From: a virus
Lineage: Duplodnaviria; Heunggongvirae; Uroviricota; Caudoviricetes
IMG/VR virus record: IMGVR_UViG_3300032046_000009
Strand: one strand, 5' to 3'
Length of the DNA stretch: 64,000 bases
Part shown: piece by piece, positions 3,895 to 52,652 of the stretch
Layout of the letters: each line of letters begins with the position of its first letter
How positions within the stretch are numbered: position 1 is the stretch's first letter
Translations under genes and position numbers: made by a program
The notes under the pieces: model-generated
Told to the model about the DNA's origin: nothing
Seen by the model: only the letters and a program-made list of their open reading frames with translations
Database searches by the model: none

Positions 3895-4416
3895 TTATAA
3901 ACCTTCGCTTTTTTTGGTAAACTTAGCGAATTTTGAGATAACGCTCTGCTGTAGCTCTAGCTGTGCATCTATTGTACATGTCCCGATAAACTCACAATAG
4001 ACCCACTCGTTTATCGTTTCTTGTATCAATTCCAACACTAGAGGGTCTGGATTATTATCAAGCAATTCATTTATTGCTGTTTTCCAAGCATAAACCTCTT
4101 GTTTCAGCAAAAATTCTCTATCGTATGACAGGCAAAATTCGGCAATATCCATATTAGGGTAAAGCGTTTGATATACGATAATATGTCCTATTTCGTGATT
4201 CAGAATTAACGCTTTTACCTTATCAGGTATTGAACCATAACCATTAATATAATTAGTTGAATAGTTCTTAGTTCCAATAATGATTTTTCGCTCAGGGTAA
4301 AATGAAGCCTTCGAATGATTCCAGCTTAGGATATAACTGTACTCGATACGGAAACCTAGTTTTTGCGCTAAGTTTTCAAGTCGTGTCAATTCATCCTTAT
4401 CGTTCAAATGTTCCAC
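3895..4416 (-). CDS. HExxH metallopeptidase-like protein
   Basis: LNHEIGH motif; tandem TATA boxes 4441-4453 and 4479-4486. Confidence 0.6.
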   Translation of the reverse strand: MEHLNDKDELTRLENLAQKLGFRIEYSYILSWNHSKASFYPERKIIIGTKNYSTNYINGYGSIPDKVKALILNHEIGHIIVYQTLYPNMDIAEFCLSYDREFLLKQEVYAWKTAINELLDNNPDPLVLELIQETINEWVYCEFIGTCTIDAQLELQQSVISKFAKFTKKSEGL

Positions 4417-4504
4417 GTCCTTAAAGATGATATAACACCGTCCTTAATAAAGAGTTCTATGGTTTTTCTTGTAATAGGTATATAAACCTTTCGCTCTGTT
4501 CGAA

Positions 4505-4800
4505 CCTGTCCGTGCCAGCGATACCCAAAAGGACTGTATATCAAACCCGTTTGTCAAAAACAAGCCCTGAGCATGTCGTTCGGACGAATACGCTCAATTC
4601 CCTTTATATTTGCTCAACGATATTGAGCGAGCAAGCCCCGTTTAGTCGAATAAGGCTAAATCGTGGAGTTCGGGTCTATGTTAGGCATGGTCAATTCAAC
4701 ATCAGTCCTATGGTAACTATGGTTCGATGACGTTCGTTTAGCTAAATCAGCCTTAGAGCTAGTCATCGCGGCGAGTTCGAATCTATAAGATGCCTCTATT
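4505..4800. ncRNA. candidate noncoding RNA locus, paralog of 19105-19400
   Basis: ORF-poor; shared blocks cccaaaggactgt, cctgagc, aacgatattga, catcagtcctatgg. Confidence 0.4.
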
Positions 4801-5871
4801 AACTGATTCCGCCTCAAATCGGGGTCCGATGATGTGTAGCTAAAGTGTATCTGTGTTCTACAACTAAAAGCAAACGTTTATATAGGACGCTGAGAACGTA
4901 GTATTTGGCGGCGGCGGTTCGCGTTAAGCGTATATTACATAGTTACGCATCTTATGAATTCAGTTGCACTAAAAGTTCAACTTTGGGTTGCCTCTCTCCC
5001 GTGTCTTGCGTCAAGCTACTAGCAGATACGCACAGCCCTATATAAACCTTCCTATTAAAGTGTAGAACAGAGATACAATAGGAACCTTTATATACCTCGC
5101 TATCCTCTTCTCAGCGCGCCTCAAATCGTGCTTCGTTTGGCTAATCCGCCTCGATTCAGCCCTAATTGAACATGGTTGTTCTAGGCAAACATTTATAAGC
5201 AACCATGCCTTTTATATGGTATGTATCGAAAGACGTGATTAAACCCAGAGTTGTACTTTATGGTTCGAATTTTGCTAAGTTTGCACATATATAAGCAACC
5301 GATAGGTTTAAATAGCTACTATATAAGGCTATCGGCGATACGCTTAAATAGGGGGTATATAAACGTTTTGGTCTAGCACAACTTCTAGTGTAACAAAAAG
5401 TGCAACTTTTGGGGTAACGCCTCGGCTAACAGGAAATTGTCCGTAGAATGCAACTGAGAATGTCACATAAGCGCACATAGGCGTTTTTTTGATTCCAATT
5501 ATTTTCTGGTCAGAGCTTCCACGCCGTCCGTTTTACCTGTCGGTTTGCCCTGCTTAATCACCTGATTAAAAGTTCTCCACAGTTCCGCGAGCCTTTCGGA
5601 TAATAAAGTCACCGTTTGCCAAAACGTCTTTTTTTCAGGGCTATTTTGGCATTCAGGGGAGCTAGAGGGGGGGGACTTGTTTATAATGGGGTATTAATCA
5701 GTTGTTTAAAATAGAGCTATAGCACTATGTCAGTCAGCACGTTGTCGTATGCCAACTATTCACTCCATAGACCCTTTACGTATGACAACCCTTTTCTTTA
5801 CGTATGTAAAGGTCATCAGTATCTTTTATCGAGCATTTCTTTTATCCATGTACTCCACTTTTTAGCTATTC

Positions 5872-6040
5872 TGGGGGTCTAGTACCACTTTTAGGGGTCT
5901 TTTGAGGGGTATAGGGAGTCATCTAGGGGGTTAGTGATTAGAGGTCGTTAGGGGTTCGTGGTTAAGGGGGTCGGACGGGGGTTCTCTGGGGTTCGGGAAT
6001 TTACTTAACAATTTCTGTTAATGGTTAGGGGGGTCGGGGT
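5872..6040 (+). repeat. G-tract iteron array (about 10 runs of G4-G6)
   Basis: taggggtc, gaggggta, tagggggtt, ttaggggttc, taagggggtcgg, acgggggttc, ctggggttcgg, ttaggggggtcgggg. Confidence 0.75.
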
Positions 6041-6389
6041 AAAGGGTGCATGTGGCATGAGAGAGCCTGTTACGAGCTACGATTCGTTAATCAGTTGATT
6101 AAAAGTTCGGGTTTGCCTGTGTCGCCTTGCTACGGGCTTGGCAGAACTTGGGTCAGTCTGGGTTGACTAGGTGAAATCAAAAAGTGTTAAGGATTCTTAA
6201 CAAAAATTGTCTAAGTTTGCAGAGGGTAAAAGAGGGGGTTTCGAGAGAGGTTAGAAGGAATGAGTAGAACGGGCGAAGGGAAAGCGCGAGAAAGGACGGT
6301 GAAAAAATGGAACAATATCCCTTCGCCCTTGATAGAGTAGTATGTCAAACGGGTATATAAAGGTTGTGGTAGAAAGACCATGCTCGAAT

Positions 6390-6608
6390 CTAGTGTTCGA
6401 CTTTATAGATTCCATAGAGCAGTACCAATATTCCAACAGGGACACCCAAAAATAGAAGCGGTGAAAATAGCGCACCAAAAGTAGCAGAAAAAGCGAAAAT
6501 GAAAATTCCACCCAGAATTGCCCCTATACTTTGGGTTAGAGGGTCACGTATGACTTCGATGGTTCTTGTGTAGAGCCACTTAAAGAATCCTATTTTTTGC
6601 TTGACCAT
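6390..6608 (-). CDS. small membrane protein
   Basis: track 6390..6617; hydrophobic stretches; ATG 5 nt after AAGTGA; TATA 6643-6650. Confidence 0.55.
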   Translation of the reverse strand: MVKQKIGFFKWLYTRTIEVIRDPLTQSIGAILGGIFIFAFSATFGALFSPLLFLGVPVGILVLLYGIYKVEH

Positions 6609-6671
6609 CTTGTTCACTTGATAATAACAACAACACCGAGCTATATAAAGGTTTCCTAAGAACGTCCATGC

Positions 6672-50900: not shown

Positions 50901-51068
50901 TCAATCGTCCTCATGCAATTTTGGCATTAGATAATACTTCTTTGAAAGACAGTTAATACAATAGTATGCACAGGTATGCAAATTCTCACAATATGCCGCT
51001 TCGATTTCTGTTAATTCTCTTTTACAACTTTTACATTTTTTACCAGACGACTTAACCCATTGTTTCAT
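50901..51068 (-). CDS. 55-aa Zn-ribbon protein (not in track)
   Basis: CKSC..CINC; hand translation. Confidence 0.5.
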   Translation of the reverse strand: MKQWVKSSGKKCKSCKRELTEIEAAYCENLHTCAYYCINCLSKKYYLMPKLHEDD

Positions 51069-51076
51069 TGTTTCAT

Positions 51077-51208
51077 TCAATTTTTACTACCACATTTATT
51101 CCAACACACTTCACATATCCATGACATTGAAGTGCCGTTCCAGTAAAGATGAACTTCTTGAACGAGAACATCGTTTCCACAATGGTCACAAGATTTAATA
51201 GCAACCAT
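51077..51208 (-). CDS. 43-aa Zn-ribbon protein (not in track)
   Basis: CDHCG..CEVC; TAATG overlap. Confidence 0.5.
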   Translation of the reverse strand: MVAIKSCDHCGNDVLVQEVHLYWNGTSMSWICEVCWNKCGSKN

Positions 51209-51396
51209 TATTTCACCTGATTGTCAATATCTTTTTGTGTATAACCATAATAGACAGGAAACTCTAAACCTTTTCTACAATCTTGGTTAATACACATCCA
51301 TTTGCAATCGACACGCTGACGTTCCTTCTCTTCATTAACCCGAATAAGCAATTCACCACATTTGGGGCATTTAAGAAGTTTAACTTCCTCGGTCAT
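51208..51396 (-). CDS. 62-aa Zn-ribbon protein
   Basis: track 51208..51468; shorter ATGA-coupled model; CPKCG..C..C. Confidence 0.5.
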   Translation of the reverse strand: MTEEVKLLKCPKCGELLIRVNEEKERQRVDCKWMCINQDCRKGLEFPVYYGYTQKDIDNQVK

Positions 51397-51560
51397 AAAT
51401 CGAGAATCCCCAATTTGACGAATGTTCCTATAATCCAGTACCAAAGAGTTATCGGGGTTGTAAGCCATAGACTAATTTCAAGAGCCATTGGAATATTTTT
51501 TCTATCTAGGAAAAACATTATGTCCACTTGAATTTTCCATCTGGCTTCGTTAAAGTTCAT
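51393..51560 (-). CDS. 55-aa Trp-rich membrane protein (not in track)
   Basis: ATGA overlaps both ends; competes with long model of 51208..51468. Confidence 0.4.
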   Translation of the reverse strand: MNFNEARWKIQVDIMFFLDRKNIPMALEISLWLTTPITLWYWIIGTFVKLGILDL

Positions 51561-52234
51561 GGTTCTTCCTTCTTTTCTTCCTTGAATTCTAAAGATTTCT
51601 GTAGTTCCTTTTTGTATCCCTCTAAGCCCAACTTCTTTATTTTGTCTTCTATGAATGCGGTAACTTCATTCTTTGCTTCGACTACAGTTTCATCCATCTG
51701 TTCTGAGAATTGTCTTTTTATAAAAGGAACATTATTTTCTATCTGCATCTTTAACTGGTCGAGTTGCTTTTGAATTTCTTCCCTATCATGTTTTCCTATG
51801 CTCGGCTTCGCTAGTATCCCAGCAATCTTGGTGTAAAATTGGTTAGTAGTCGATGCGACTTCCTTCATCTTATCTTCGAATTCGGTATCGAACTGCACAC
51901 GTTTACTTTCAAATTGTGCCTCTTTTACTTCATGTCCATCCATGTAACGTATTGTGCATGGGGTTCCTTCACCCTGATTCAAAGATGTTATAGCATCTGC
52001 AAACTGTGACGGCGAAAGATAAACGGATACTATCGGTACGCCGTGGTCCGACATAATCCAATCTTTGTAAAGGTCCCTCATAAGAATAGCTTTGCTAATA
52101 TCTACTCTGATGAATGTTCTCTGCTGGATACTGCTTCCAAACAAATTCATTTTCTCTGAGCAAACGCCCCTAGAGATATTTATTACACCAAAACTTGGGT
52201 GTCTTATTTCTTTTCTTTTCTCTTCATCAGGCAT
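51557..52234 (-). CDS. hypothetical protein
   Basis: 225 aa ORF. Confidence 0.7.
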   Translation of the reverse strand: MPDEEKRKEIRHPSFGVINISRGVCSEKMNLFGSSIQQRTFIRVDISKAILMRDLYKDWIMSDHGVPIVSVYLSPSQFADAITSLNQGEGTPCTIRYMDGHEVKEAQFESKRVQFDTEFEDKMKEVASTTNQFYTKIAGILAKPSIGKHDREEIQKQLDQLKMQIENNVPFIKRQFSEQMDETVVEAKNEVTAFIEDKIKKLGLEGYKKELQKSLEFKEEKKEEP

Positions 52235-52652
52235 ATTTTTTTGGCTTCCTTTTATGTAGTTTCTCTCGTAAATCTTTTAAATCAAATTGTGACGGTTTGG
52301 AAACACAGAGAGAACCAATATCGCTTACTTCTTCTGAAAAACCAAATCGCCGCATTATTCGATAAATTAATGCATGTTCCAACTCGTGGCTAATTACATC
52401 ATCAACGGTTTTCAATTGGAACAAACGTTTCAAATACATTTTGTTCAACCTAATAAGGTTGTAATAAGGTGAATATTCCCCACTAATACGACTATCGAGA
52501 TTAGAAGCCCTCAAAAATACATCGTTAAAATCCACGGCATATTCTTCTCTATATTTCTTGAAGCAACATACGCACAATTCACATTTATCTATCTGTGTAT
52601 CGGGGTTATATTTTTCTTTAAGACTCTTTTTAGCTTTTTTAAGCCAGTTCAT
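52227..52652 (-). CDS. SprT-like HExxH metallopeptidase-like protein
   Basis: VISHELEHALIY. Confidence 0.6.
   Translation of the reverse strand: MNWLKKAKKSLKEKYNPDTQIDKCELCVCCFKKYREEYAVDFNDVFLRASNLDSRISGEYSPYYNLIRLNKMYLKRLFQLKTVDDVISHELEHALIYRIMRRFGFSEEVSDIGSLCVSKPSQFDLKDLREKLHKRKPKKYA

What the first reader, a model, noticed from the sequence alone, without database searches (positions are those of the whole stretch)
3895..52652. Four small HExxH proteins plus the HExxH-VWA protein
The motifs are NHEIGH (3895..4416), NHEFLH (41268..41552), GHEVLH (46603..47040), SHELEH (52227..52652) and HECGH (17211..18938). Several minimal Zn-metallopeptidase-like proteins on one element is unusual. With the S1 protease (61814..62677), this raises the possibility of proteolytic processing, conceivably of the tagged small proteins. 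That last link is speculative.
Basis: inference. Interest (0 to 1): 0.4.

Follow-up and report, generated by a model that had tools for sequence, protein, structure and literature searches.

The report
Five zincin-like proteins in a large phage
A stretch of an uncultivated large phage genome really does encode five different proteins with a conserved zinc-protease signature, but this is a new example of a pattern already described for jumbo phages, and nothing yet links these proteins to the many C-terminally tagged small proteins nearby.

Summary
All five HExxH motifs are present at the stated coordinates. The window has six HExxH against about one expected (shuffle P about 0.001), and the motif is invariant in the homologues of each of the five proteins.

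- **3895-4416.** Matches the phage family phrog_87, annotated 'metallo-protease' (E 4e-5).
- **52227-52652.** SprT-like, but below Pfam's curated cut-off.
- **41268-41552 and 46603-47040.** These belong to one previously unannotated family specific to this phage group, defined by HExxH-x14/15-D. Only those four residues are invariant across six lineages. The fold evidence is suggestive, not decisive.

In passing: 81 small ORFs here end in ExVxFT. Related phages carry different tails (FVLS, FVFR, KVxLI, VC), and codon usage shows selection on the protein. That feature is more remarkable than the assigned finding.

The parts
17211..18938 (-). CobT-like adaptor protein, 575 aa. N-terminal zincin (M48-like) domain of about residues 1-260, with H80 E81 H84 (18687-18701) and E120 D121 (18576-18581). 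Acidic low-complexity linker at about residues 280-330. C-terminal VWA domain with MIDAS residues D406 S408 S410 and D501.
15780..16667 (-). CobS/MoxR-type AAA+ ATPase, 295 aa, partner of the CobT-like protein.
   Evidence: Pfam AAA_5 at 1e-13 plus CbbQ_C. NCBIfam CobS TIGR01650 at 1e-5, far below the equivalog cut-off. tblastn hits to phage 'CobS/porphyrin biosynthesis/AAA-ATPase' genes at about 25% identity. An AAA_5 gene lies within 0-3 genes of the VWA-protein homologue in all six related loci.
3895..4416 (-). 173-aa stand-alone HExxH protein, matching the phage metallo-protease family phrog_87. H74 E75 H78 (4183-4197); conserved E107 in the QEVYAWK segment.
   Evidence: phrog_87 'metallo-protease' at E 3.9e-5 over residues 10-120. 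The homologue in L006 hits the same family at 1.5e-5. HExxH and E107 are conserved in the two metagenomic homologues found, at 67-75% identity. No Pfam, PDB or GenBank-phage match. That phrog_87 is the ImmA/IrrE-type family, and the ImmA/IrrE-like sequence layout, are my reading and were not tested.
41268..41552 (-). 94-aa minimal HExxH protein (TTG start overlapping the upstream stop). One of two paralogue types of the HExxH-x14/15-D family specific to this phage group. HEFLH at residues 56-60 and the Asp of YDK at residue 75, in 94-aa numbering.
   Evidence: 9 homologues; NHEFLHWI, YD and GLYxH are invariant. hhalign to the 46603 family: probability 70%, E 4e-5. In the 16-sequence alignment across lineages, only H, E, H and D are invariant. 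Pfam gives only sub-threshold hits, one member each: PhageMetallopep 0.024, MPTase-PolyVal 0.046, SprT-like 0.08.
46603..47040 (-). 145-aa minimal HExxH protein, the second paralogue type of the HExxH-x15-D family. H90 E91 H94 (46759-46773) and D110 (46711-46713); GGYxG...I..F strand upstream of the motif.
52227..52652 (-). 141-aa SprT-like HExxH protein. H89 E90 H93 (52374-52388); conserved G104 and D124.
   Evidence: Pfam SprT-like at E 2.4e-4, 21.4 bits against a cut-off of 25.6, covering residues 30-100. NCBIfam SprT PRK04860 at 0.0027. Only 5 relatives among 1.84 billion cluster representatives. L66 H89 E90 E92 H93 G104 D124 are invariant.
61814..62686 (-). HtrA/DegP-type serine protease domain without a PDZ domain (290 aa). 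Named in the finding; not a zincin.
   Evidence: Pfam Trypsin_2 at 9e-15. NCBIfam Do/HtrA sub-threshold at 7e-9. Triad motifs at residues 62-64, 123 and 196-200.
30168..30437 (-). Sixth HExxH (EEHEKLHRD) in an 89-aa ORF that ends in the ERVQFT tail. Probably a chance occurrence.
   Evidence: Found. Charged context rather than hydrophobic; no family hit. Homologues and conservation were not examined.

Best explanation
The window is part of a large, uncultivated tailed-phage genome. It has many short genes, about 80% of them on one strand, and no GenBank relative at the DNA level. It carries five independent genes for zincin-type, zinc-binding hydrolase-like proteins.

(1) The 575-aa protein is a CobT-like adaptor. 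An N-terminal M48-like zincin domain that keeps HExxH plus an invariant Glu-Asp pair on the next helix (a gluzincin-type arrangement) is joined by an acidic linker to a VWA domain with an intact MIDAS site. It most likely works as the substrate-engaging partner of the neighbouring CobS/MoxR-type AAA+ ATPase. In this reading the ATPase remodels a target protein held by the VWA and zincin domains, and the retained metal site probably cuts it. The architecture and gene linkage are shown; the remodelling and cutting are inferred.

(2) The four small proteins are stand-alone 'minimal zincins'. Each is predicted to have a short beta-sheet whose edge strand would bind the substrate, the HExxH helix, and a third ligand (Asp or Glu) on the following helix. 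One matches the phage metallo-protease family phrog_87, one is SprT-like, and two belong to a family specific to this phage group (HExxH-x14/15-D) that is kept, often as two paralogues, in all six related lineages sampled. They most likely act as site-specific endopeptidases on particular host or phage proteins inside the infected cell. The conserved motifs are shown; the fold of four of the five proteins and any activity are inferred.
Confidence: 0.6

Rival explanations
1. The large protein's zincin domain is a non-catalytic docking module, a pseudo-peptidase as appears to be the case in cobaltochelatase CobT. The AAA+/VWA pair would then be purely a chaperone or metal-insertion machine, and the HExxH would hold a structural metal or none.
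For: The CobT N-domain is described as M48C-like and contacts CobN through its three-stranded sheet; a term search of that paper found no mention of zinc. The ATPase's best curated hit is CobS. GenBank phages annotate the pair as CobS/CobT.
Against: H80, E81, H84, E120 and D121 are invariant in 28 sequences down to 29% identity. The same HExxH...EDxRI motif is kept in distant phage CobT-like proteins from Gordonia and Ochrobactrum phages. Such conservation of the catalytic Glu is not expected for a mere docking surface. No CobN-like gene was seen in the window, although only 64 kb was examined.
Confidence: 0.25
2. The two small proteins without profile support (41268-41552 and 46603-47040) are not peptidases. 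They would be small metal-binding regulators or inhibitors, or hydrolases acting on another substrate such as nucleic acid or nucleotide, that happen to share an HExxH...D site.
Against: The only invariant residues over six lineages are exactly the four that make a zincin site. A G-x-[FY] plus hydrophobic strand precedes the helix, which I recall as SprT-like layout (the SprT comparison is from memory). The sub-threshold hits are all to zincin families: SprT-like, PhageMetallopep, MPTase-PolyVal, M36, DUF922.
Confidence: 0.2
3. One reading: these zincins, or the S1 protease, process the small proteins that carry the V-x-F-T C-terminal tail.
For: The tails are real, very numerous and selected at the protein level. 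All tail types resemble a short C-terminal beta-strand preceded by an acidic or basic residue; from general knowledge of zincins, their edge strand binds that kind of ligand, and a MIDAS site binds an acidic one. The HExxH-x15-D family and the CobT-like pair are present in lineages with every tail type. The 46603 protein has an invariant Phe within a '[VILM]-x-F' segment near its own C-terminus.
Against: There is no direct evidence. Locus L013 has both HExxH-x15-D paralogues but no recognisable tails in 18 kb. The tails could equally be read by a host protease, a chaperone, a packaging system or a hub protein. Part of the tail in the window (GAR-AAG-GTN) doubles as the Shine-Dalgarno sequence of the next gene.
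Confidence: 0.1
4. The motifs are chance occurrences in unrelated small ORFs.
For: HExxH is short; about one occurrence is expected in this window, and the sixth one (30168-30437) looks like that.
Against: Six observed against 1.05 expected, P 0.001. The motif is invariant in all families. A zincin fold is shown for one protein.
Confidence: 0.03

Closest known systems
Jumbo-phage MoxR AAA+ / vWA pair with an N-terminal metallopeptidase on the vWA protein (Iyer, Anantharaman, Krishnan, Burroughs & Aravind 2021, Viruses 13:63); annotated 'CobS/CobT-like' in many phage genomes
   Same: Adjacent AAA_5 ATPase and a protein with the architecture N-terminal HExxH zincin domain, linker, MIDAS-bearing VWA. 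The N-domain is homologous to that of Ochrobactrum phage OC 'CobT' (hhalign probability 96%), which shares the HExxH...EDxR[IV] motif.
   Different: No tblastn match of the window protein to any of 50,697 GenBank phage records. No Pfam CobT or CobT_C hit. The family is known only from metagenomes, and some members carry inteins. Gene order relative to the ATPase varies between lineages.
Aerobic cobaltochelatase CobS-CobT (with CobN)
   Same: Same three-part CobT architecture (M48C-like N-domain, linker of about 90 residues, VWA with MIDAS) and a CobS-type AAA+ partner.
   Different: No CobN in the window. Scores against the curated CobS model are far below the equivalog cut-off (24.9 against 558 bits). 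Here the zincin metal-site residues are invariant, whereas for CobT a docking role on CobN is described.
SprT-like / Spartan / Wss1 minimal zincins (Pfam PF10263), present in 1-3 copies in some jumbo phages
   Different: The score is below Pfam's gathering threshold. No zinc-ribbon or DNA-binding extension was recognised in the window protein. The candidate third ligand (D124) is 30 residues after the motif.
Phage metallo-protease family phrog_87, which I believe (from memory, not tested) to be the ImmA/IrrE (COG2856, Peptidase_M78) type
   Same: 3895-4416 and its L006 homologue match phrog_87 at 4e-5 and 1.5e-5. By eye the sequence follows the N-terminal helix, strand, HExxH, downstream E-x-x-A-x-x order that I recall for ImmA/IrrE proteins.
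   Different: No Pfam PF06114 hit. No adjacent repressor-like gene was recognised. The phage looks lytic and jumbo-like rather than temperate.
Minigluzincins (selecase, proabylysin, projannalysin) and the Zincin_1 proteins (PDB 2ejq, 3e11)
   Same: Soluble zincin scaffolds of about 100-115 residues. They appear among the top structural hits for both models.
   Different: From recollection, those use Glu or His as the third ligand. The phage family has an invariant Asp 14-15 residues after the second His and no detectable sequence similarity to them.

Membership tests
Zincin (HExxH) metallopeptidase fold | HExxH invariant among homologues | tested here: met
   Met in all five families and in the 16-sequence superfamily of 41268 and 46603.
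Zincin (HExxH) metallopeptidase fold | Motif on a helix packed after a small beta-sheet, with significant structural similarity to solved zincins | tested here: met
Zincin (HExxH) metallopeptidase fold | Same structural criterion applied to the small proteins | tested here: inconclusive
Zincin (HExxH) metallopeptidase fold | Third metal ligand on the following helix or turn | tested here: inconclusive
   Invariant candidates exist: E120/D121, D110, the Asp of YDK, D124 and E107. The geometry could not be inspected.
Zincin (HExxH) metallopeptidase fold | Zinc-dependent peptide-bond hydrolysis | not testable with these tools
   Requires biochemistry.
SprT-like (Pfam PF10263), for 52227-52652 | Score at or above Pfam's gathering threshold | tested here: not met
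   21.4 bits against a cut-off of 25.6, E 2.4e-4; 2 of 6 family members hit. NCBIfam SprT gives 17.3 bits against 175.
Phage metallo-protease family phrog_87 / ImmA-IrrE type (Pfam PF06114), for 3895-4416 | Significant match to the family profile | tested here: inconclusive
   phrog_87 at 3.9e-5 and 1.5e-5, but no Pfam hit at E<=1 and no PDB profile hit. The equivalence of phrog_87 with ImmA/IrrE is from memory.
Phage CobT-like metallopeptidase-vWA with MoxR/CobS partner, for 17211-18938 | C-terminal VWA domain with MIDAS | tested here: met
Phage CobT-like metallopeptidase-vWA with MoxR/CobS partner, for 17211-18938 | N-terminal zincin domain homologous to that of annotated phage CobT proteins | tested here: met
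   hhalign probability 96%, E 3e-9 to Ochrobactrum phage OC CobT; 68% to Gordonia phage gp70. Shared HExxH...EDxRI motif.
Phage CobT-like metallopeptidase-vWA with MoxR/CobS partner, for 17211-18938 | Conserved linkage to an AAA_5 ATPase | tested here: met
   In the window and in L001/L002, L009, L010, L011, L012 and L013.
Cobaltochelatase CobST(N) | Curated CobS/CobT equivalog scores and presence of CobN | tested here: not met
   CobS TIGR01650 gives 24.9 bits against 558.55. No CobT or CobT_C Pfam hit for any of 28 members. No CobN-like ORF among the large ORFs of the window. The rest of the genome was not examined.

The most novel reading that the evidence does not exclude
In this phage group, about 40% of the genes in the accessory region encode small, mostly unrelated proteins that end in a lineage-specific C-terminal tag: ExVxFT here, and ETF[VI]LS, F[VI]FR, K[VI]KVxLI or [DE][KR][VM]C in relatives. 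The conserved pair of minimal zincins specific to this group (HExxH-x15-D), and/or the CobT-like zincin-VWA adaptor with its AAA+ motor, would be the co-evolving readers of these tags. Together they would form a phage-encoded, tag-directed proteolysis or remodelling system that controls a whole class of phage proteins at once.
Probability: 0.08. Interest if true: 0.85.

Novelty: new member of a known kind. Interest (0 to 1): 0.33.

Why it matters
Phage-encoded small zincins are thought to cut specific host or phage proteins, in host takeover, counter-defence or virion maturation, but almost none has a known substrate. This window adds a well-conserved family specific to one phage group (HExxH-x14/15-D, usually two paralogues per genome). 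It also adds a deep metagenomic branch of the CobS/CobT-like AAA+/zincin-VWA machine, in which the metal-site residues are invariant. That conservation argues the phage versions are real enzymes rather than docking modules. The greater value is in the context: the same genomes carry dozens of small proteins with lineage-specific C-terminal tags. Those tags supply a concrete, testable set of candidate substrates or ligands for whatever reads them.

Tried and rejected
- **DNA and tblastn against 50,697 GenBank phage records.** No match for the 20-kb core or for the proteins at 17211, 3895, 46603 and 52227. Only distant CobS/CobT-like hits were found, through the ATPase and through the most divergent family member.
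- **IMG/VR pattern scans** for the proteins at 46603, 52227 and 3895: nothing.
- **PDB sequence and profile searches** for 3895, 52227 and the alignments A6, A2 and A7: nothing significant.
- **NCBIfam:** only far-sub-threshold hits. **PADLOC:** nothing for the five HExxH proteins.
- **Paralogue hypothesis.** The idea that the five proteins are paralogues was rejected: profile-profile comparisons match only the motif helix, with probabilities of 1-11%. The exception is 41268 against 46603 at 70%.
- **DUF2201_N-type domain.** I expected the large protein to match this Pfam metallopeptidase domain; no Pfam model matched its N-terminal domain in any of the 28 members.
- **AlphaFold-database fold search:** not available. 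The BFVD search was not significant.
- **Rfam scan of the whole window:** no RNA family.
- **tRNA scan:** none.
- **Tail as a nucleotide signal only.** I considered that the V-x-F-T tail is purely a Shine-Dalgarno sequence plus an overlapping start codon. This is only partly true. GAR-AAG-GTN does match the window's apparent Shine-Dalgarno consensus AAGGT (read by eye from start contexts) at the right distance. But the F-T part is absent from uncoupled start sites, six tails sit before TAA or TAG stops without an overlapping start, and in relatives the tail Ser uses both AGY and TCN codons.
- **Literature search** for the tail sequences and for phage C-terminal tags: nothing relevant.
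Full report
**What the window is.** The 64-kb window has about 200 short ORFs, some 80% of them on the minus strand, and a GC content of 35-42%. It has no tRNA, no Rfam match and no megablast match to 50,697 GenBank phage records. The same sequence occurs on metagenomic contigs of 86 and 152 kb. Recognisable genes include:
- three GT2 glycosyltransferases;
- an RNA ligase;
- an SPFH/Band-7 protein;
- a KaiC/RecA-type ATPase;
- a Lar-like protein;
- an AAA_5 ATPase.

I read this as the accessory region of a large uncultivated tailed phage.

**Checking the observation.** A non-overlapping gene set of 194 ORFs (18,922 aa) contains six HExxH. Composition predicts 1.05, and only 0.1% of within-protein shuffles reach six; permuted control motifs occur 0-2 times. 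Five of the six have the hydrophobic context typical of an active-site helix. The sixth (30168-30437, EEHEKLHRD) does not, and is probably chance.

**The large protein (17211-18938).** The evidence falls into four groups.
- *Homologues and conserved residues.* It has 77 homologues in metagenomes, some interrupted by inteins. In 28 sequences down to 29% identity, the invariant residues are H80, E81, H84, E120, D121, R123 and the MIDAS residues D406, S408, S410, S500 and D501.
- *C-terminal domain.* This third of the protein is a VWA domain. 23 of 28 members hit PF00092, and the profile matches integrin I-domains in the PDB at 7e-6.
- *Partner and relatives.* The gene two positions downstream is an AAA_5 ATPase whose best curated match is CobS. 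An AAA_5 gene lies within 0-3 genes of the homologue in all six related loci fetched. Distant tblastn hits lead to phage 'CobS'/'CobT-like' genes. The Gordonia and Ochrobactrum phage CobT proteins carry the same HExxH...EDxRI motif. The N-domain profile aligns to the Ochrobactrum one with 96% probability.

Two papers frame this protein. Iyer et al. [quoted passage not shown] A 2026 preprint reports that genuine CobT consists of an M48C-like N-domain, a linker of about 90 residues and a VWA domain. The large protein is therefore a new, deep-branching member of a known kind. Because the whole metal site is invariant, I favour a catalytically competent domain over a mere docking module. That is an inference.

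**The four small proteins.** They are not paralogues of one another. Profile-profile comparisons align only the motif helix, with probabilities of 1-11%. The exception is 41268 against 46603 (70%, E 4e-5).
- *3895-4416* matches phrog_87 'metallo-protease' (3.9e-5; its homologue 1.5e-5). By eye it has the layout I recall for ImmA/IrrE proteins, with a conserved E107. Only two close homologues were found.
- *52227-52652* matches SprT-like at 2.4e-4, which is below Pfam's cut-off. It has only five relatives among 1.84 billion representatives, with H89, E90, E92, H93, G104 and D124 invariant.
- *46603-47040* has 22 homologues with invariant GGYxG, HExLHQV and LDxxH.
- *41268-41552* has 9 homologues with invariant NHEFLHWI and YD.

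**How unusual is it?** Iyer et al. already note 1-3 SprT-like metallopeptidases in some jumbo phages and propose that they cleave host proteins. Four different small families plus the CobT-like protein in 64 kb is at the high end of that range, but it is not a new kind of thing. Relatives of this phage also carry extra small HExxH ORFs: five beyond those used to fetch the loci, against 1.2 expected (P 0.008).

**The proposed link to tagged proteins.** The tails are real and striking.
- *Numbers.* 81 minus-strand ORFs of 33-133 aa between 9.7 and 55.9 kb end in [EVI]-x-V-x-F-[TSD]. With the tails removed, they fall into 60 BLAST clusters, so most are unrelated to each other. 34 of them have two or more CxxC pairs.
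- *Nucleotide-level component.* Part of the tail doubles as a translation signal. ACW-TGA holds the next gene's overlapping ATG or TTG start.
- *Protein-level component.* Third codon positions vary synonymously. Glu is never replaced by Asp, nor Phe by Leu. Six tails precede TAA or TAG stops with no overlapping start.
- *Lineage-specific tails.* Relatives have different tails: ETF[VI]LS, F[VI]FR, K[VI]KVxLI and [DE][KR][VM]C. The Ser of the first is encoded by both AGY and TCN codons. So the tails are lineage-specific tags selected at the protein level.

Nothing I could compute ties the tags to the zincins or to the S1 protease. One lineage (L013) has both small zincins but no visible tags in 18 kb. 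I rate the link at about 0.1. It is attractive, because zincins bind substrates by strand addition and MIDAS sites bind acidic residues, but it is unsupported.

**Verdict.** The finding is a new member of a known kind and of moderate-to-low interest in itself. The C-terminal tag system seen in passing deserves its own investigation.

Noticed in passing
window 9746-55948, minus strand (for example 9958-10200, 21420-21629, 43879-44061): 81 small ORFs (33-133 aa) end in a near-identical C-terminal tail, [KR]-E-[KV]-V-x-F-T, followed by a stop (TGA in 46 of the 52 tails first catalogued). With the tails trimmed they form 60 BLAST clusters, so most bodies are unrelated. 34 have two or more CxxC pairs. 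The tail overlaps the next gene's Shine-Dalgarno sequence (AAGGT) and its ATG or TTG start, but it also shows signs of selection on the protein: synonymous third-position variation, no Glu-to-Asp or Phe-to-Leu changes, and retention before TAA or TAG stops.
   Followed up: partly
L003/L004 10592-17211; L009 4656-19515; L010 2973-14345; L011 604-12219; L012 9349-21677: Related phages, found through homologues of the VWA protein or of 46603, carry different conserved tails on their small ORFs. L003 has ..EKVxFT. L009 has ..[DE][KR][VM]C. L010 has ..ETF[VI]LS, with Ser encoded by TCT, TCG, TCC, AGT and AGC. L011 has ..K[VI]KVxLI. L012 has ..F[VI]FR. L013 shows none in 18 kb. These look like lineage-specific C-terminal tags; two keyword searches of the held paper library found nothing relevant.
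   Followed up: partly
window 46603-46680 (C-terminal part of the 145-aa HExxH protein): The protein has 'RFTVEFVTKKK' near its C-terminus. F132 within a '[VILM]-x-F' segment is invariant in 22 homologues. The segment resembles the V-x-F-T tail and could be a pseudo-substrate, as I recall for the self-inhibiting C-termini of minigluzincin zymogens. This is speculative, and that part of the model has low confidence.
   Followed up: no
L003:7536-7952; L006:7810-8331; L009:394-723; L010:18395-19165; L011:6634-7131; L012:6486-6800 and 9576-9791; L013:12175-12827: Relatives encode further small HExxH ORFs (71-173 aa). Most fit the HExxH-x15-D family and often occur as two neighbouring paralogues. 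One (L003, 138 aa) hits phrog_87 at 1.9e-4.
   Followed up: partly
homologues P0005, P0011, P0018-P0020, P0059 of window 17211-18938: Several homologues of the CobT-like protein are about 900 aa long. Three of them (P0005, P0020, P0059) carry intein or LAGLIDADG domains on record (PF14890, PF14528, PF05204); the other long ones have no such domain recorded. This points to intein insertion in this gene in some phages.
   Followed up: no
window about 4730-6250, about 19400-20000 and about 35834-36640: Stretches of 0.6-1.5 kb have no ORF of 60 aa or more on either strand, in an otherwise tightly packed genome. The region upstream of the 3895-4416 homologues in L005 and L006 is similarly ORF-poor. 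No Rfam family and no tRNA were found.
   Followed up: partly
window 44551-44952: A Lar-like restriction-alleviation protein (PF14354, 6.7e-7) itself ends in the tail ...PEVVHFT. The tag is therefore also attached to at least one protein with a recognisable anti-defence domain.
   Followed up: no
window 49519-50175, 58745-59680, 63122-63691; 53407-54525; 29203-30099; 32812-33756: Three GT2 glycosyltransferases, an RNA ligase, an SPFH/Band-7 protein and a KaiC/RecA-type ATPase. The RNA ligase and the KaiC-type ATPase recur near the CobT-like gene in relatives L012 and L013.
   Followed up: no
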